Virus record (IMG/VR): IMGVR_UViG_3300021399_000099
Span: 152,911 to 216,910 of that record
Direction: 5' to 3' (one strand)
DNA length: 64,000 nt
Source of the DNA: a virus
Lineage: Duplodnaviria; Caudoviricetes
This document shows, piece by piece, positions 14,505 through 23,947 of the stretch. The stretch's first letter is position 1. The number at the start of each line of letters is the position of its first letter. A program made the position numbers and the translations under genes. The notes under the pieces were generated by a model that saw only the letters and a list, made by a program, of their open reading frames with translations, ran no database searches and was not told the DNA's origin.

Positions 14505-14604
14505 TAGCGGGTTTGGGAGTCGAACCCAATATCCTGAGGTTATGAGCCTTAGATGATAGCGGACTTGCTGTTATGCGAAGCCCTATCCGTTTCACTCCCC
14601 CGCG
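14505..14604 (-). tRNA. Initiator-like tRNA-Met(CAT) with ACAGCAA-containing D-loop insertion
   Basis: CGCGGGG acceptor; CT-CAT-AA; extra hairpin ATAGGGCTTCGCATAACAGCAAGTCCGCTAT. Confidence 0.7.
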
Positions 14605-14621
14605 GTGTTATCTTTCTTTTG

Positions 14622-14694
14622 TAGGGCCGACGGAATTCGAATCCGTGTGATAGGAATGAAAATCCTATATCCTGGACCACTAGATGACAGCCCC
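14622..14694 (-). tRNA. tRNA-Glu(TTC)
   Basis: TAGGA-TT-TTC-AT-TCCTA. Confidence 0.9.
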
Positions 14695-15056
14695 ATATAT
14701 TAAAAAATGCTTCTACTGCATCGCTGCGACTGAGGAACCCCGGCTTTACGAGGATTGCATTACTATTGGGAATCTCTTCCTTTACATAGTTTTACCCACC
14801 TGTTGGCAAGGCGCTTCTGTTGTGGCTTATGGATTATACCCACAATCTCAAGATACACCGGCAACCCGACACTTTGTGGAACGGTTTCATATTACATTGG
14901 CGTACGTACGATAACCAATGCTATTACCCAGTATCACTTGGCAAGGTCCTACTCTAAAATAGGACAGAAGCACTTGGACCCCCGGGACGGTTACACTCCG
15001 CCTTGCTCCCAGTAAAATCCGGGGCTTCATAAACAAAAAGCCTCCGGGGGATGTAT

Positions 15057-15176
15057 CAGGAAACAATTCAATGTTTTAATCCGCTAAACTAACGAGTGAG
15101 CCATTCTCGTGCCGGATTCGAACCGACGACTCTTCTTTTAGATAGAAAAATTGAAAAACTGCTGTGCGTTTCCTTG
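15057..15176 (-). ncRNA. ACAGCA-motif RNA carrying a circularly permuted tRNA mimic (CUA loop)
   Basis: GGAAAC-GC-ACAGCAG, then anticodon hairpin (ATCTAAA), T-arm GTCGG-TTCGAAT-CCGGC, closed acceptor ACGAG/CTCGT, D-arm, then GTTTCC. Confidence 0.7.
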
Positions 15177-15187
15177 TTTTTGGCTCT

Positions 15188-15264
15188 TGGCGGTGCGTAT
15201 GGGACTCGAACCCATGACCTTCGGCGTGACAGGCCGACATTCTAGCCAGCTGAACTAACGCACC
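15188..15264 (-). tRNA. tRNA-Asp(GTC), CCA encoded
   Basis: Canonical cloverleaf. Confidence 0.95.
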
Positions 15265-15361
15265 AGCAAAATAAAGAGCATTAACTTCCGGCCTTTGACT
15301 TGCTCGCTAACAGGCATTATCACCGTCCAGGTATCCTGACACCGCAGAGGTTGCTTTCTTG

Positions 15362-15432
15362 AGCGGGTAAGCAGAATCGAACTGCCCTCCTTAGCTTGGG
15401 AAGCTAATGCACTGCCACTGTGCTATACCCGC
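15362..15432 (-). tRNA. tRNA-Gly(CCC)
   Basis: TTAGC-TT-CCC-AA-GCTAA. Confidence 0.95.
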
Positions 15433-15749
15433 GATACGATTTAAGGCTAGCTTCGCGAACCGTTTGTATCTTCACGTCATTTACATTAACGAGGGATTCG
15501 TGCGTTTCCCGGTATCCCCACCGCCACGGAATGTCACCATCCGGGTTATACTCATTTGTCCCTTCTCATATAGTCCGGGAAACCTATTTAATAGGCCGAG
15601 TATATTAAGAGCCATATCAGTTGTTGCAACCCTGATATGTTGTTACCGACGTGCGACCACCAATTGTTAACACTGCCTTTTACTTTGAGGGTTCCCTGAT
15701 TACACTGAGCTCTTATGTACTTATGCGGGAACTCTTTCGGTATCTCTTG

Positions 15750-15824
15750 TGGGCAGTGAGAGATTCGAACTCCCGAATCATCTGAATGTAAATCAGAGGT
15801 CCTAAACCGCTAGACGAACTGCCC
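15750..15824 (-). tRNA. tRNA-Val(TAC)
   Basis: TCTGA-TT-TAC-AT-TCAGA; Glu-type D-arm. Confidence 0.85.
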
Positions 15825-16054
15825 TTTTTACACCCATATTTCCTTCATGTCGTCACTGGCATCTGCACGGGTGTATCTTTATTTGTGCAGTACTAACCCT
15901 GTTATCACCCCTTTCGTAGCCCGTGCGCCCTATATTTGGTTAATGACGCCGTTCTCACACGATACTCATAATAACTTTTAACCCCAGACCACATTGCACG
16001 TTGCCCAAATCCGCAATGGTTCTCCCGGGGTGGGAAAGGAAATCGGACAAGACG

Positions 16055-16140
16055 TGAGTCAGGATGGATTCGAACCAACGACCCTTGCGGTTACTATGCT
16101 AAGCATTTTCCGCTGCTCTCCCACTCTGAGCTACTGACTC
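16055..16140 (-). tRNA. tRNA-like RNA with extended anticodon arm
   Basis: Normal acceptor, D and T arms; arm GCGG-AAA-ATGC-TTA-GCAT-AGTAA-CCGC. Confidence 0.55.
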
Positions 16141-16324
16141 AAAAATAGCATAGTAATCATTTCTTCATCAGGTGTTTCCACTCTGATTAAACCCTGGTAA
16201 TTCCAGACCGGTGCTGACACACAGACAGGTGGTTTTATCTCCGGAGACCAATCCTGAAAGGTTCATTGACTTCGGTGCAGCCTTACTATTTTTACCGGAG
16301 TGATATCAAGTTCCGGTGCTATTG

Positions 16325-16396
16325 TAGCGGGAGAGGGATTCGAACCCACGGCCTCCAGGTTATGAGCCTGACGAGCTACCTCTGCTCTACCCCGCG
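16325..16396 (-). tRNA. tRNA-fMet(CAT)
   Basis: CGCGGGG with 1:72 mismatch; CT-CAT-AA. Confidence 0.9.
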
Positions 16397-16402
16397 ATGT
16401 TG

Positions 16403-16476
16403 TTGCGCAGGAAGGACTCGAACCCCCGACCTCCAGCTTATGAGGCTGGCTAGCTACCAACTGCTATCACCGCGCA
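16403..16476 (-). tRNA. tRNA-Met(CAT), initiator-like
   Basis: CCAGC-CT-CAT-AA-GCTGG. Confidence 0.9.
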
Positions 16477-16534
16477 ATGTCTTTCTATTATTATACAAAA
16501 ACTATACCAAACTAACAAATTTTTGTAAAAATTG

Positions 16535-16663
16535 TTGCGAGTGGAGGAATCGGACCCCCTCTAGTCCCTTATGATGGAGTTTCGCTTGTAAAATTGCTGC
16601 CTGGTTTCATGTCTGAAATCGTTTGTTTGCTTTTTTACCGTGCTACCATTACACTAACTCGCA
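16535..16663 (-). tRNA. tRNA-Met(CAT) with CAGCAA module inserted in the 5' strand of the anticodon stem
   Basis: Insert contains TTTCA-GACA-TGAAAC-CAG-GCAGCAA. Confidence 0.65.
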
Positions 16664-22677: not shown

Positions 22678-22752
22678 CTCTTTTTATTTTTGCTATATAT
22701 AAATATATACGAACTTGGAAAAAAAATCAAGGTTTTAATTTTTTTTTACCTG

Positions 22753-22837
22753 CAAGAGTGGGAGGATTCGAACCCCCGAGGACATTACTCCTTCTGGTTT
22801 TGGAGACCAGTGCCATCAACCACTCGGCCACACTCTT
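22753..22837 (-). tRNA. tRNA-Trp(CCA) with long variable arm
   Basis: CTGGT-CT-CCA-AA-ACCAG. Confidence 0.85.
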
Positions 22838-22846
22838 ATATTTTAC

Positions 22847-22911
22847 GGGAAACTGTTTTTAATGTCGGCGTTACAGGCTGATTTTCAAAAGTAACTTGCT
22901 GTCTGTTTCCC
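22847..22911 (-). ncRNA. Stand-alone ACAGCAA RNA displaying a Tyr(GTA) anticodon stem-loop
   Basis: GGGAAAC-AG-ACAGCAA...TCAGC-CTGTAAC-GCCGA...GTTTCCC. Confidence 0.7.
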
Positions 22912-22921
22912 TATATTTTAT

Positions 22922-23392
22922 TTATCTTCTTGCCTTATAGTCGGCCATCGTAGTTGATAGCGGGCAGAGCGTCTTCCATCTACATTCAAATCCCTCTGAC
23001 TCAACCCATCCTTTAGCCGCACTAAAGGCTACGTTAGACCCAGCATCCTCATCCGGACTAATGTCAATGTCAATATACTTAACAAAGATGCCAGAATCCC
23101 TCATTAACTTTGCTACATCAAGAGAAGCCATTGTTTCGTCCATCATTCTGTCAAAAATCTCAGACTTCTTATATCTTCTACTTCTCCAAGTCCTGGAAAT
23201 AACGTGCGCCCCATGTCCATGCTCACCATCGCCACTGTCGTAAAGGGCGACAATTGTAGCAAAACAAGTGTGCCCGCCGTGGCATTGAGAGTCCGTACTA
23301 ACCATAATCTGGATATTACGGTGTGTGTGGCAGTAGTTGCCTACATAAGTTACCAGGTCTATTTTCTCCCCATTAAATTTCTTGAACTCCAT
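22922..23392 (-). CDS. RNase H-like YkuK/DUF458 family protein
   Basis: 'VSTDSQ...FATIVAL...GAH...RMMDE..SL..A...IDIDI...SN...AD'. Confidence 0.8.
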   Translation of the reverse strand: MEFKKFNGEKIDLVTYVGNYCHTHRNIQIMVSTDSQCHGGHTCFATIVALYDSGDGEHGHGAHVISRTWRSRRYKKSEIFDRMMDETMASLDVAKLMRDSGIFVKYIDIDISPDEDAGSNVAFSAAKGWVESEGFECRWKTLCPLSTTMADYKARR

Positions 23393-23432
23393 ACTTCATA
23401 CTCCTTAACTTTTATAAATATTATCCTTTTTG

Positions 23433-23516
23433 CGGAAGACTGAGGTGCCGACCCCCACACCATACAGTGCGCTTCGCTTTCAAGACGAGCCCCAAGGCCG
23501 CTCAGGTTAATCTTCC
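23433..23516 (-). tRNA. (8/4) tRNA-Ser(TGA)
   Basis: GGAAGATT/AGTCTTCC; T-stem GGGG/CCTC. Confidence 0.85.
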
Positions 23517-23525
23517 ATATTTGTG

Positions 23526-23608
23526 CGGATAGCGGAGGTCCCGACCCCCACCCCAAAAGGAGCGTACCGCTTTCGAGACGGACTTGAGCCCCGCCCAATT
23601 CACTATCC
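23526..23608 (-). tRNA. (8/4) tRNA-Ser(CGA)
   Basis: GGATAGTG/CGCTATCC; CT-CGA-AA. Confidence 0.85.
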
Positions 23609-23609
23609 G

Positions 23610-23699
23610 AGGAAGAGACTGGTACCGACCCAGACCCGTTTTTTAGACGAGCAGACACCTTTCCAGAGTGCTCCGGTAACCCCGACCGGTTCCTCTTCC
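23610..23699 (-). tRNA. (8/4) tRNA-Ser(GGA)
   Basis: GGAAGAGG/TCTCTTCC; CT-GGA-AA; T-stem CTGG/CCAG. Confidence 0.8.
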
Positions 23700-23703
23700 A
23701 ATA

Positions 23704-23797
23704 TGGCGGTGAGGGAGGGGCTCGAACCCTCGCGCCGGGTTTTAACCGACCTAACGGTTTAGCAAACCGTCCCCTTCACCAACTTGGGTACCTCACC
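23704..23797 (-). tRNA. tRNA-Ser(GCT), CCA encoded
   Basis: Canonical class II cloverleaf. Confidence 0.95.
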
Positions 23798-23801
23798 ATA
23801 G

Positions 23802-23872
23802 TTGGGATATTTAGATTCGAACTAAAATAACAACTTTCAGAGAGTTGCATGTTACCATTACATCATACCCCA
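23802..23872 (-). tRNA. tRNA-Gln(CTG)
   Basis: CAACT-CT-CTG-AA-AGTTG. Confidence 0.9.
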
Positions 23873-23879
23873 ATATTTA

Positions 23880-23947
23880 CAGGAAACATTTGTTCAGAAT
23901 GTTAGATTAAAAGTCTAGTCCTTAAAAACTTGCTGTATGTTTCCTTG
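23880..23947 (-). ncRNA. Stand-alone ACAGCAA RNA displaying a Lys(TTT) anticodon stem-loop
   Basis: GGAAAC-AT-ACAGCAA...TAGA-CTTTTAA-TCTA...GTTTCC. Confidence 0.75.

What the first reader, a model, noticed from the sequence alone, without database searches (positions are those of the whole stretch)
14505..23947. A family of ~9 'GGAAAC-NN-ACAGCA' RNA modules combined with tRNA parts in several topologies
Seen in sequence, all on the minus strand: a GGAAAC/GTTTCC helix followed by an unpaired NN-ACAGCA(A/G). It occurs (a) stand-alone at 20562-20628, 22847-22911 and 23880-23947; (b) closing a circularly permuted tRNA at 15057-15176; (c) enclosing a whole Ser-like tRNA at 18432-18564; (d) as a loop-closed permuted arm inserted in the anticodon stem of tRNAs at 16535-16663, 16782-16902 and 16915-17030; and (e) reduced, in a D-loop at 14505-14604. 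Forms b and d are circular permutations of each other. Established knowledge: bacterial Y RNAs (YrlA) join a Ro60-binding stem to a tRNA-mimic domain. Inference: the module is a protein-binding handle for a Ro60/TROVE-like or similar RNA-repair factor encoded outside this window, tethering interchangeable tRNA-like effectors. I cannot match it to a family I know.
Basis: partly seen in the sequence, partly recalled or inferred. Interest (0 to 1): 0.9.

Follow-up and report, generated by a model that had tools for sequence, protein, structure and literature searches.

The report
Phage Y-like RNAs carrying tRNA anticodon arms
The repeated motif marks eight small RNA genes in this giant phage's tRNA cluster; each joins a conserved handle to a tRNA anticodon arm or a whole rearranged tRNA, and they are most likely the RNA partners of a Ro60-like protein the phage encodes elsewhere, a family I could not find described for phages.

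Summary
GGAAAC-NN-ACAGCA occurs only on the tRNA strand, only at 15.1-23.9 kb, and nowhere else in the 217-kb contig. The copy at 14505-14604 is not a member.

The module is a handle: a terminal helix P1 with fully compensatory covariation, an unpaired N-ACAGCAA, and a second helix P2. P2 carries a tRNA-type anticodon stem-loop. Some copies instead carry a whole tRNA, either circularly permuted or interrupted in its anticodon stem.

The family is widespread: more than 115 distinct copies, 7-8 per complete 360-412 kb phage, always on the tRNA strand.

The contig encodes, outside the window, a 542-aa DUF2828+vWA protein whose predicted fold matches Ro60/TROVE. Pfam TROVE misses it. Module and protein co-occur (11 of 13 complete module-bearing records, against 1 of 41 controls). 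All 48 modules within 10 kb of the gene share its strand, some 40-150 nt away.

The handle also sits beside Ro-like genes in cultured phages, including Felix O1-like, Listeria, Campylobacter, mycobacterial and cyanobacterial phages. It is not YrlA. It resembles Dictyostelium Class I RNAs (Rfam RF01414).

Earlier notes of this scan reported similar handle RNAs beside Ro60-like genes in other genomes. Binding and function remain untested.

The parts
23880..23946 (-). Module a1, stand-alone. P1 is 23938-23945 paired with 23881-23888. The unpaired U-ACAGCAA is 23930-23937. The anticodon stem-loop CUAGA-CUUUUAA-UCUAA (Lys UUU type) is 23902-23918.
   Evidence: R1 67.7 bits; coordinates; loop. It starts 3 nt after tRNA-Gly and ends 7 nt before tRNA-Gln.
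22846..22912 (-). Module a2, stand-alone. P1 is 22905-22911 with 22847-22853. The unpaired strand is 22896-22904. The anticodon stem-loop UCAGC-CUGUAAC-GCCGA (Tyr GUA type) is 22865-22881.
   Evidence: R1 58.5 bits. It lies directly after the PF04308 ORF and 10 nt before tRNA-Trp.
20561..20629 (-). Module a3, stand-alone. P1 is 20622-20628 with 20562-20568. The unpaired strand is 20613-20621. The inner hairpin 20580-20596 has a less clear 7-nt loop (UUUUGGC). A U run follows.
   Evidence: R1 51.6 bits.
18432..18564 (-). Module c. P1 (18558-18564 with 18432-18438) and UA-ACAGCAG (18549-18557) enclose a tRNA-like body in normal order. The body has D, T and long variable arms and a 9-nt 'anticodon' loop at 18489-18507.
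   Evidence: Exact motif. ARAGORN calls tRNA-Ser(gga) at 18448-18535; Rfam tRNA scores only 30.5 bits. Coordinates. The model R1 does not hit it, because the payload differs.
16915..17030 (-). Module d3. A tRNA whose anticodon-stem 5' strand is split (ACG | GC) by a 44-nt insert at 16959-17002. The insert contains a loop-capped P1 (16989-16994 with 16977-16982) and UU-ACAGCAG (16968-16976). The anticodon loop has 8 nt (AUUUGGGA).
   Evidence: one-mismatch motif; R1 16.2 bits.
16782..16902 (-). Module d2. A tRNA-Lys(UUU)-like gene with a 47-nt insert (16826-16872) between positions 29 and 30. The insert has P1 (16857-16862 with 16845-16850) capped by AGGCAU, then CA-ACAGCAA (16836-16844). Exon pieces ACG+GG pair with CCCGU.
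   Evidence: Rfam tRNA 48.8 bits with a 58-nt insertion in the anticodon arm. It is seen unspliced in one RNA-library contig.
16535..16663 (-). Module d1. A tRNA(CAU)-like gene with an insert (16579-16636) between positions 28 and 29. P1 is degenerate (GAUUUC/GAAACC, 16615-16620 with 16603-16608) and is followed by AG-GCAGCAA (16594-16602).
15057..15175 (-). Module b, a handle closing a circularly permuted tRNA. P1 is 15168-15174 with 15058-15064. GC-ACAGCAG is 15159-15167. P2 is UUCAAU/AUUGAA (15150-15155 with 15067-15072). The anticodon arm UUUUCU-AUCUAAA-AGAAGA (CUA, amber type) is 15131-15149. It is followed by the T arm (15111-15127), a loop-capped acceptor stem (15092-15110) and the D arm.
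   Evidence: R1 32.2 bits; weak YrlA match to the T-acceptor-D part only (21.6 bits).
14996..15173 (-). Extent of an RNA contig that contains module b. It begins at the first G of GGAAAC and ends after a GC-rich hairpin plus U run (15056-14996).
   Evidence: Identical 178-nt contigs in two metatranscriptome studies (X15 and X16). Contigs give only a weak hint of RNA ends.
14505..14604 (-). A tRNA(CAU)-like sequence with an insertion in the D region. It is NOT a member of the family.
   Evidence: ACAGCAA lies in a hairpin loop, the spacing to GAAAC is wrong, and R1 finds nothing even at E<=10.

Best explanation
The modules are genes for small Y-RNA-like RNAs.

Each has a conserved handle. The 5' and 3' ends pair in an about 8-bp helix (here AGGAAACN with N'GUUUCCU). 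An unpaired N-ACAGCAA follows on the 5' strand, and then comes a second helix. This stem-bulge-stem is most likely the docking site of the phage's own Ro60-like ring protein. That protein is a DUF2828 domain fused to a vWA/MIDAS domain, 542 aa, encoded at G000:66695-68323, about 95 kb from the array.

The second helix carries the payload. At minimum this is a faithful tRNA anticodon stem-loop. In other copies it is a whole tRNA body, wired either with a sealed acceptor stem (permuted) or with free acceptor ends and a capped handle. The RNAs are co-transcribed with the tRNA array and cut out like tRNAs.

Shown: the RNA architecture, its covariation, its distribution, the fold of the protein and the genomic linkage. 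Inferred: that the protein binds the handle. More speculative: that the particle uses the anticodon arms as tRNA look-alikes in tRNA damage control or counter-defence, for example by engaging anticodon-directed nucleases or working with RtcB.
For: RNA structure
- P1 is 99.9% paired across 116 distinct copies. Five of six pairs change on both sides, and no change is one-sided (GGAAAC/GUUUCC 70, GGGAAC/GUUCCC 14, GAAAAC/GUUUUC 13, GGAAGC/GCUUCC 7).
- ACAGCAA is present in 110 of 115 copies.
- In unbiased folds the inner hairpin most often has a 7-nt loop, with C32 80%, U33 91%, A37 91%, A38 77%, and only U or G at position 34.

Protein
- DUF2828+DUF7788 by Pfam, with an invariant DxSxS motif.
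- The AlphaFold model has pLDDT 80, and its 12 best PDB matches are all Ro60/TROVE over 550-598 aligned columns.
- A sequence profile also hits Ro60 first.

Linkage
- DUF7788 is present in 28 of 46 module-bearing viral records and in 11 of 13 that are at least 90% complete.
- Only 1 of 41 unrelated viral records has it (Fisher p=1.5e-9).
- Conversely, modules occur in 28 of 47 further records chosen for the protein, and in 12 of 16 complete ones.
- All 48 modules within 10 kb of the gene are on its strand. Several lie 40-150 nt from the ORF.
- One locus, L285, has tandem units after the gene and no tRNA within 10 kb.

Cultured phages
- Units lie immediately beside Ro-like genes in Leptolyngbya phage Lbo-JY46, Escherichia phage wV8, Mycobacterium phage Aegeus, Listeria phage LMTA-57 and Campylobacter phage F336.

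Precedent
- Canonical Y RNAs are a 5'-3' stem with a bulge carrying a short motif bound by Ro60, and some carry permuted tRNA mimics (PMC4201824, PMC12135203).

RtcB
- RtcB lies between the Ro-like gene and the array in G001 and G004.
Against: - No binding data exist.
- In this contig the gene lies 95 kb from the array, and the contig is only 61% complete.
- Two small complete phages (53 kb and 30 kb) carry a module-like sequence without the protein. Four of 16 complete protein-bearing records show no model hit, although the model is biased towards the GGAAAC form.
- The handle lacks the GNCGAA/CGAA motif of known Y RNAs.
- The need for 7-8 different anticodons per genome is not explained by what is known of Ro60.
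Confidence: 0.68

Rival explanations
1. The handle is a processing signal analogous to the archaeal bulge-helix-bulge motif. An endonuclease and a ligase (RtcB) would excise it from the interrupted tRNAs. They would circularise the permuted ones, which RNase P and 3' processing would then open, giving ordinary decoding tRNAs.
For: - The same element sits at the same 28/29 or 29/30 position in intron-like and permuted forms, and the split strand always restores a perfect anticodon stem.
- Permuted bodies keep a 7-bp acceptor stem, U8-A9, G18G19 and the T loop.
- RtcB is present in 3 of 4 complete genomes tested.
- The capped acceptor of M. smegmatis YrlA is cut by RNase P and receives CCA (PMC4201824).
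Against: - About 80% of distinct copies (91 of 115) carry only an anticodon arm and could never become a tRNA.
- No tRNA splicing endonuclease was found in 5 genomes, and there is no bulge-helix-bulge geometry.
- RNA-library contigs show module b linear from P1 onward and d2 unspliced, with no joint at any module.
- Canonical tRNAs with the same anticodons coexist in the same genomes.
- RtcB is absent from complete genome G005.
Confidence: 0.1
2. The RNAs act on their own as anticodon-arm decoys or sponges for anticodon nucleases, modification enzymes or synthetases. On this view the conserved handle serves only folding, stability or excision from the array transcript, and linkage to the Ro-like gene is a by-product of both living in tRNA regions.
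For: - The loops copy real tRNA loops, including G37 in the Pro type.
- The census is led by Lys UUU (17), Pro UGG (9), Cys GCA (7), Tyr GUA (5) and Ser UGA (5).
- Orthologous loci of three 410-kb phages differ only in the anticodon: GUA, GCU and GUG.
- Two small phages have a module but no Ro-like gene.
Against: - Units follow the Ro-like gene even where no tRNA genes are near (L285, Aegeus, Lbo-JY46).
- In Felix O1-like phage wV8 two of the three units with the same handle show no evident anticodon arm and the third carries a permuted tRNA. The handle, not the payload, is therefore the constant.
- The invariant single-stranded heptamer is typical of a protein contact rather than of a folding aid.
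Confidence: 0.14
3. The element is a small self-cleaving ribozyme that trims neighbouring tRNAs, like the HDV-like theta ribozymes of gut phages.
For: - Modules often start 3-12 nt after a tRNA.
- RNA contigs from two studies begin at the first G of P1 of module b.
- Relatives carry hatchet and hammerhead ribozymes in the same regions.
Against: - No ribozyme family of Rfam matches.
- The fold lacks the pseudoknots or three-way cores of the known classes.
- Capped, permuted copies inside tRNAs make no sense for a 5'-end cutter.
- The specific link to a Ro-like protein would be left unexplained.
Confidence: 0.04
4. It is a DNA-level repeat: a promoter, recombination site or cassette boundary.
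For: The inverted repeats flank cassettes, and GG...GC spacing faintly recalls the sigma54-type promoters noted elsewhere in this genome.
Against: - All copies lie on the tRNA strand (45 of 45 loci with tRNAs).
- Covariation is compensatory and preserves RNA pairing, including G-U.
- GG-to-GC spacing is 9, not 10.
- RNA contigs span the element.
Confidence: 0.02

Closest known systems
Bacterial and phage Y RNAs bound by Ro60/Rsr, especially YrlA (Rfam RF02553; Chen et al. 2014, PMC4201824) and Yrl1/Yrl2 of Thermus phage phiLo (PMC12135203)
   Same: - The 5' and 3' ends pair, with a bulge carrying a short conserved motif next to the 5' strand (stem-bulge-stem).
- The genes lie on the same strand as, and often next to, a Ro60-type ring+vWA gene.
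- Payloads can be circularly permuted tRNA bodies with a capped acceptor stem.
- RtcB is in the neighbourhood.
   Different: - The motif is N-ACAGCAA, not GNCGAAN0-1G or CGAA.
- YrlA model scores are 23 bits or less, against a threshold of 69.
- The constant payload is an anticodon arm, which YrlA lacks.
- There are 7-8 copies per genome with different anticodons, spread through a tRNA array.
- The partner is a DUF2828-type protein that Pfam TROVE does not detect.
Class I RNAs of dictyostelid social amoebae (Rfam RF01414; Kjellin et al. 2021, PMC7919456)
   Same: - A short terminal stem joins the 5' and 3' ends, with free covariation but a conserved 5' G and 3' CUG.
- A conserved motif lies directly after the 5' stem strand. 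The Rfam consensus is GaUcuC-CUUACAGCAA, and here it is GGAAAC-NN-ACAGCAA.
- A variable middle is followed by an A-rich stretch before the 3' strand; total length is about 60 nt.
- Phage units score 39.3, 30.7, 30.7, 29.6 and 26.2 bits with RF01414. The authors used 25 bits as their candidate level.
   Different: - All phage scores are below Rfam's 41.5-bit threshold, and the window's own copies do not reach E<=10.
- Class I RNAs are eukaryotic, have their own DUSE promoters, and are reported as unique to Dictyostelia.
- Their known direct binder is the RRM protein Rnp1A.
- No anticodon arm or tRNA payload is described for them.
Ro60-like gp130 of Felix O1-like phage Bas63 (bioRxiv 10.1101/2024.10.10.617714)
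   Same: It is a Ro60-like phage protein encoded directly upstream of the tRNA array, as in wV8 gp047 and in G001-G005 here. The authors guessed that some 'tRNA genes' may be Y RNAs.
   Different: The paper reports a phenotype (it counters the Ppl defence) but identifies no RNA partner. I found ACAGCAA-handle units in wV8 and did not examine Bas63 itself.
Permuted and intron-containing tRNA genes processed through bulge-helix-bulge motifs (archaea, Cyanidioschyzon merolae)
   Same: One element marks introns and the junctions of circularly permuted tRNA genes at non-canonical positions such as 29/30 and the D loop.
   Different: There is no bulge-helix-bulge geometry, no splicing endonuclease and no junction reads. 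Most copies have no tRNA body at all.

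Membership tests
YrlA / Y RNA-like (Rfam RF02553) | Covariance-model score at or above the gathering score of 69 bits | tested here: not met
   Best scores are 23.0, 22.3 and 21.6 bits. 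The 21.6-bit hit covers only the T-acceptor-D part of module b.
YrlA / Y RNA-like (Rfam RF02553) | GNCGAAN0-1G motif near the 5' end (PMC4201824) | tested here: not met
   The 5' parts read (A)AGGAAAC-NN-ACAGCAA, and no GNCGAA occurs in any of the 8 copies. In Mycobacterium phage Aegeus the unit reads GCGCGA-ACAGCAA, so CGAA and ACAGCAA overlap there.
YrlA / Y RNA-like (Rfam RF02553) | Encoded within about 4 kb of, and on the same strand as, a Ro60 orthologue | tested here: inconclusive
   In this contig the Ro-like gene is on the same strand but 95 kb away. In relatives, 48 of 48 modules within 10 kb share the gene's strand and many lie within 4 kb.
YrlA / Y RNA-like (Rfam RF02553) | tRNA-like domain (T arm, capped acceptor, D arm) with the handle replacing the anticodon arm | tested here: not met
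   Only module b and the permuted relatives have T-acceptor-D. All of them keep an anticodon arm, and the handle branches from position 26/27, position 29/30 or the D loop.
Y RNA in the functional sense (RNA partner of a Ro60-type ring protein) | Physical binding to the Ro60-type protein | not testable with these tools
   Only genomic linkage is available.
Dictyostelium Class I RNA (Rfam RF01414) | Short stem joining the 5' and 3' ends, structure conserved but sequence free, with a conserved 5' G | tested here: met
   P1 is 99.9% paired with compensatory changes. The first pair is G-C in 112 of 115 copies. The stem sequence is free in wider relatives.
Dictyostelium Class I RNA (Rfam RF01414) | Conserved 11-nt motif (consensus CCUUACAGCAA) directly after the 5' stem strand | tested here: inconclusive
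   ACAGCAA is invariant and in the same place. The preceding positions are variable in this window (AU, AG, AC, UA, GC) and often UU in relatives.
Dictyostelium Class I RNA (Rfam RF01414) | Covariance-model score at or above 41.5 bits | tested here: not met
   The window copies give no hit at E<=10. Related phage units score 26-39 bits.
Dictyostelium Class I RNA (Rfam RF01414) | Dictyostelid origin with an upstream DUSE promoter | tested here: not met
   These are phage genes inside a tRNA operon.
Ro60/TROVE proteins (for the partner, G000:66695-68323) | HEAT-repeat ring followed by a vWA domain with a MIDAS motif | tested here: met
   The AlphaFold model (pLDDT 80, pTM 0.80) has 12 of its 12 best PDB matches in Ro60/TROVE, with TM 0.41-0.54 over the full length. 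D324, S326 and S328 are invariant.
Ro60/TROVE proteins (for the partner, G000:66695-68323) | Match to Pfam TROVE (PF05731) | tested here: not met
   No PF05731 match in G000-G005. The protein matches PF11443 DUF2828 and PF25043 DUF7788 instead.
Bulge-helix-bulge tRNA introns and permuted tRNA genes | tRNA splicing endonuclease present, and spliced or circular junctions in RNA | tested here: not met
   PF01974 is absent from 5 genomes. No joint was seen at any module in 4 RNA libraries, but these are contigs only.

The most novel reading that the evidence does not exclude
The ACAGCAA handle of these phage RNAs and the Class I RNAs of Dictyostelia are the same RNA module. Both have a terminal stem, a conserved 5' G and 3' CUG, and CUUACAGCAA. 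That module would be the recognition element of DUF2828-type Ro60-like proteins.

Class I RNAs, described as unique to social amoebae and of unknown mechanism, would then be Y-RNA-type partners of a Ro-like protein. They would be either inherited or captured from phage or bacteria.

In phages the same handle would display programmable anticodon arms. This would give a multi-copy Ro particle aimed at the tRNA anticodon-recognising machinery, such as defence nucleases.
Probability: 0.35. Interest if true: 0.9.

Novelty: new variant of a known kind. Interest (0 to 1): 0.8.

Why it matters
- Ro60-Y RNA particles are known from animals, some bacteria and a few phages, but their RNA partners in most phages are unknown.
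- This finding defines a large RNA family absent from Rfam. It covers more than 115 distinct copies here, relatives in at least 475 viral contigs that encode the protein, and homologues of the protein in 691 cultured phage records.
- The family probably supplies those RNA partners, including in tractable phages such as Felix O1-like coliphages, Listeria A511-like phages, Campylobacter phages, mycobacteriophages and a cyanophage.
- For the Felix O1-like phage Bas63, the Ro60-like protein is already reported to counter a defence system.
- The payload can be a bare anticodon arm with a rapidly changing anticodon. This points to tRNA-directed conflict as the arena.
- It also explains many 'broken', 'permuted' or 'intron-containing' tRNA calls in phage arrays.
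- The resemblance to Dictyostelium Class I RNAs offers a concrete, testable lead on a 20-year-old orphan RNA class.

Tried and rejected
- **Pfam TROVE (PF05731).** The search of G000-G005 found nothing. I nearly rejected the Ro60 idea on that basis. It was a false negative for a DUF2828-type protein.
- **TerD (PF02342).** A lead from earlier notes on other genomes: absent in 5 genomes.
- **Retron-like priming at the G of ACAGCAA.** No reverse transcriptase (PF00078) in 5 genomes.
- **tRNA splicing endonuclease.** Absent.
- **Host Ro60.** TROVE occurs in only 6 of 201 genomes of the order of a Bacteroidaceae MAG, with no handle next to those genes.
- **Bacterial genomes.** One pattern scan gave 18 matches, of which only 2 look real. 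Both are on MAG contigs with tRNAs and are probably phage DNA.
- **Pth2-like ORF and PF04308 ORF as obligate partners.** They are present in only 4 of 6 and 2 of 5 genomes respectively.
- **P2 by duplex energy against shuffles.** The signal is weak (mean z -0.5, p=4e-4), because U-rich and A-rich linkers pair easily in shuffles too. P2 rests mainly on inspected cases.
- **RNA libraries.** Only contigs were available. I saw no joints at modules. The three listed joints lie elsewhere or look foreign. Parts without cover mean nothing.
- **Capped-P1 pattern scan.** Mostly chance hits in coding DNA. Two were real: L174 and L178.
- **Medium payloads (61-91 nt).** Mostly chance.
- **Literature.** Searches for phage anticodon-arm decoys, permuted tRNAs in phages, phage tRNA introns and DUF2828 found no description of this family.
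- **Dictyostelium DUF2828.** A protein search with a canonical DUF2828 member listed only unnamed metagenomic proteins, so it cannot say whether dictyostelids have one. Avesson et al. 2011 is not held.
- **Not used.** Complex prediction takes proteins only, so I did not use it.

Full report
**Setting.** The window is the last 64 kb of a 216,910-bp IMG/VR phage contig that CheckV rates 61% complete. Bases 9.5-30 kb hold 48 ARAGORN tRNA genes and a tmRNA, all on the minus strand. BACON, DUF3575 and BspA-type repeat proteins suggest a Bacteroidota host. DNA runs that hold large parts of the stretch come from animal gut and rumen metagenomes.

- GGAAACNNACAGCA with up to one mismatch occurs 7 times, always on the minus strand, against 0.16 expected.
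- In the whole contig a relaxed form occurs 8 times. All are on the minus strand between window 15173 and 23944.
- The copy at 14505-14604 shares only the heptamer, which sits in a hairpin loop, and it fails the family model.

**What the module is.** A scan of viral contigs for the stand-alone form returned 62 loci.
- Forty-five of them contain tRNA genes, every one on the module's strand. The module is often 4-20 nt from a tRNA.
- Payload length is bimodal. Payloads of 30-60 nt gave 62 loci and payloads of 92-122 nt gave 52. The 21 loci between those ranges are mostly chance.
- I built a covariance model, R1, from 34 copies. It found 121 matches in the loci held, of which 116 are distinct.
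- The terminal helix P1 is 99.9% paired. Five of six pairs change on both sides and none changes on one side only. Variants are GGAAAC/GUUUCC 70, GGGAAC/GUUCCC 14, GAAAAC/GUUUUC 13 and GGAAGC/GCUUCC 7.
- In more distant phages the stem sequence is free (AGCUUCU, GACAGCU, GGUUAGU and others). The constant features are 5'-(A)AG, N-ACAGCAA and 3'-CUG. ACAGCAA itself is present in 110 of 115 copies.
- After the unpaired heptamer a U-rich strand pairs with the A-rich strand that precedes the 3' half of P1. This is P2. It is clear in cases such as UUUAAAC/GUUUAAA and in module b (UUCAAU/AUUGAA). Statistically it is only modest.
- The handle is therefore a long helix interrupted by a one-sided, sequence-conserved bulge.

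**The payload.**
- In the short form P2 is capped by a hairpin that copies a tRNA anticodon arm.
- Unbiased minimum-energy folds most often give a 7-nt loop. Its composition is C32 80%, U33 91%, A37 91%, A38 77%, with only U or G at position 34. The background is 11% C and 37% U.
- The census is Lys UUU 17, Pro UGG 9 (with G37, as in real tRNA-Pro), Cys GCA 7, Tyr GUA 5, Ser UGA 5, His 3, Ile 3, Asp 2, ochre-type 2 and Gln 2.
- Orthologous loci of three 410-kb phages differ only in the anticodon: GUA, GCU and GUG.
- The long form is a complete tRNA body in circularly permuted order, with a 7-bp acceptor stem closed by a 3-9-nt loop. The break, where the handle emerges, lies between positions 29/30 (Thr UGU type) or 26/27 (module b), or at the end of the D loop (Ile GAU type).
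- The window's d copies are the un-permuted counterpart. d2 shares the body and break point of the permuted Thr type and differs by one base in the anticodon.
- Complete 360-412 kb phages have 7-8 modules each, all on the tRNA strand. These coexist with canonical tRNAs bearing the same anticodons.

**Expression.** Only assembled contigs of RNA libraries were available. Two studies each contain an identical 178-nt contig, window 14996-15173. It starts at the first G of P1 of module b and ends after a GC hairpin and U run. One contig holds d2 with its insert. No joint was reported at any module. This is a weak hint of a discrete, unspliced RNA.

**Finding the partner.**
- Pfam TROVE, TerD, reverse transcriptase and the tRNA splicing endonuclease are all absent from this contig and from complete relatives.
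- RtcB is present in 3 of 4 complete relatives.
- I compared all ORFs of the contig with the loci collected around modules. This singled out a 542-aa ORF at G000:66695-68323, whose homologues lie near arrays or directly beside modules.
- It carries DUF2828 and DUF7788 domains and an invariant DxSxS MIDAS motif.
- Its profile hits Ro60 first among PDB sequences.
- Its AlphaFold model (pLDDT 80) has Ro60/TROVE structures as its 12 best matches over the full length. These include the Ro60 of Thermus phage phiLo and D. radiodurans Rsr.
- Mycobacteriophage homologues are annotated 'Ro-like RNA binding protein'.

**Linkage.**
- DUF7788 is found in 28 of 46 module-bearing viral records and in 11 of 13 that are at least 90% complete.
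- Only 1 of 41 unrelated viral records has it (p=1.5e-9). Those controls are smaller genomes.
- I then fetched 79 loci by the protein alone. Of 47 records not seen before, 28 have model hits, as do 12 of 16 complete ones.
- All 48 hits within 10 kb of the gene are on its strand. Several lie 34-150 nt from the ORF, some as tandem arrays.
- In L285 there is no tRNA within 10 kb, so the link does not depend on tRNA arrays.
- In G001 and G004 the order is Ro-like gene, RtcB, then the array.
- Units with the same handle lie beside the Ro-like gene in five cultured phages:
  - Leptolyngbya phage Lbo-JY46: five tandem units in an unannotated gap right after the gene.
  - Escherichia phage wV8 (Felix O1-like): three units in the array after gp047, one carrying a permuted tRNA.
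  - Mycobacterium phage Aegeus.
  - Listeria phage LMTA-57: RtcB lies 1.3 kb downstream.
  - Campylobacter phage F336.

**Comparison with known families.**
- Canonical Y RNAs have a 5'-3' stem and a bulge with a GNCGAA or CGAA motif that Ro60 contacts. YrlA adds a permuted tRNA mimic without an anticodon arm, encoded within 4 kb of rsr on the same strand (PMC4201824, PMC12135203).
- The present RNAs share that logic but fail YrlA membership. Scores are 23 bits or less against a threshold of 69, the motif differs, and an anticodon arm is present.
- Iyer et al. noted TROVE proteins in a few jumbo phages (PMC7824862).
- The PhageMaP preprint showed that the Ro60-like gp130 of Bas63 counters the Ppl defence. 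Its authors guessed that some neighbouring 'tRNA genes' are Y RNAs (10.1101/2024.10.10.617714). I found no paper that defines the RNAs.
- Unexpectedly, Rfam's model of Dictyostelium Class I RNAs matches phage units at 26-39 bits, against a threshold of 41.5. Its consensus is GaUcuC-CUUACAGCAA...AAAAAcCCUu-GagAuC-UG, the same architecture and motif.
- Class I RNAs are described as 42-65 nt, with a covarying terminal stem, an invariant 5' G, an 11-nt motif after the 5' strand and a variable remainder. They are reported as unique to Dictyostelia (PMC7919456).
- The window's own copies do not reach that model's reporting level.

**Mechanism and confidence.**
- Best supported (about 0.68): these are Y-RNA-like partners of the phage's Ro60-like protein. 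The stem-bulge-stem handle is the docking site and the anticodon arm or tRNA body is the displayed payload.
- What the particle does is inference. By analogy with Ro60, Y RNA and exonuclease complexes, with rsr-rtcB operons and with the Bas63 phenotype, I favour a role in tRNA damage control or counter-defence. The fast-changing anticodon arms would serve as tRNA look-alikes.
- The processing-signal rival explains the d and permuted forms elegantly. It fails on the majority form, on the absence of an endonuclease and on the unspliced RNA contigs.

**Relation to earlier notes of this scan.** Notes on other genomes had already reported handle RNAs with tRNA mimics beside Ro60-like genes. They prompted me to look for a divergent Ro-like protein after the TROVE search failed. 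I verified the protein, the linkage and the Felix O1-like case myself. The TerD fusion reported for another family is not present here.

Noticed in passing
window 9632-9991 (-): A 119-aa ORF with a Pth2-like core (KLYVLIDK..VYGCVQGGHAV..EPDL..TAIAV). It has no Pfam hit. It is conserved inside the tRNA arrays of 16 loci and in 3 of 5 complete relatives. Here it lies directly upstream of the CUA suppressor tRNA (9525-9597).
   Followed up: partly
window 22922-23392 (-): A 156-aa ORF of Pfam PF04308 (RNaseH_like, YkuK family) embedded in the array. It ends 10 nt before module a2. Among the relatives tested it is also present in G005 but absent from G001, G003 and G004.
   Followed up: partly
window 14728-14962, 15457-15675, 15831-16037, 16079-16308, 19196-19469 (-): Long GC-rich spacers between tRNAs appear as discrete contigs of 200-270 nt in two to four metatranscriptome runs. 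No Rfam family matches them. They look like further stable structured RNAs of unknown kind.
   Followed up: no
window 19483-19569 (-): A match to Rfam tRNA-Sec (49.5 bits, threshold 47) lies directly after the GIY-YIG ORF. ARAGORN does not call it. Similar T-arm plus ...CCGCA minihelix-like sequences recur at about 23440-23690.
   Followed up: no
window 19560-20495 (-) and 21577-22677 (-): GIY-YIG and HNH homing-endonuclease ORFs sit inside the array. HNH homologues occur in 27 module loci. The 3' end of the HNH ORF runs into a sequence that looks like the T arm and 3' acceptor strand of a tRNA.
   Followed up: no
window 20920-21042, 26276-26406, 29488-29665 (-): tRNA-model matches of 123-178 nt have large insertions that do not contain the ACAGCAA handle. 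There are also tRNAs with odd anticodon loops: a 4-base 'tacg' at 26271-26347, a 2-base loop at 16054-16140, and 8 nt in d3.
   Followed up: no
window 9462-9522 (-): ACAGCAA also occurs by chance in the stem of a terminator hairpin (GACAGCAAA...UUUGCUGUC plus a U run). A TGGCAC-N5-TTGTA box follows, the sigma54-type promoter noted elsewhere in this genome.
   Followed up: partly
window 14300-14476 (-): A weak, truncated match to the group I intron model (25.8 bits, threshold 50) at the edge of the array.
   Followed up: no
L309:1208-1284, 5320-5467, 5961-6510; L328:944-1042, 3431-3982: In related phages the region around the Ro-like gene also holds other RNAs. L309 has a RAGATH-1 hammerhead (76.5 bits), a hatchet ribozyme (91.5 bits) and a tmRNA. 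Listeria phage LMTA-57 has a drum RNA and a near-threshold ROOL RNA (88.5 bits against 99.1).
   Followed up: no
L178 (IMGVR_UViG_3300035703_004067, 421 kb) 2818-2843: A loop-capped handle with its own closing stem (CACGAA/UUCGUG) sits inside a sequence that is not obviously a tRNA. The handle can therefore be grafted onto other RNAs.
   Followed up: no
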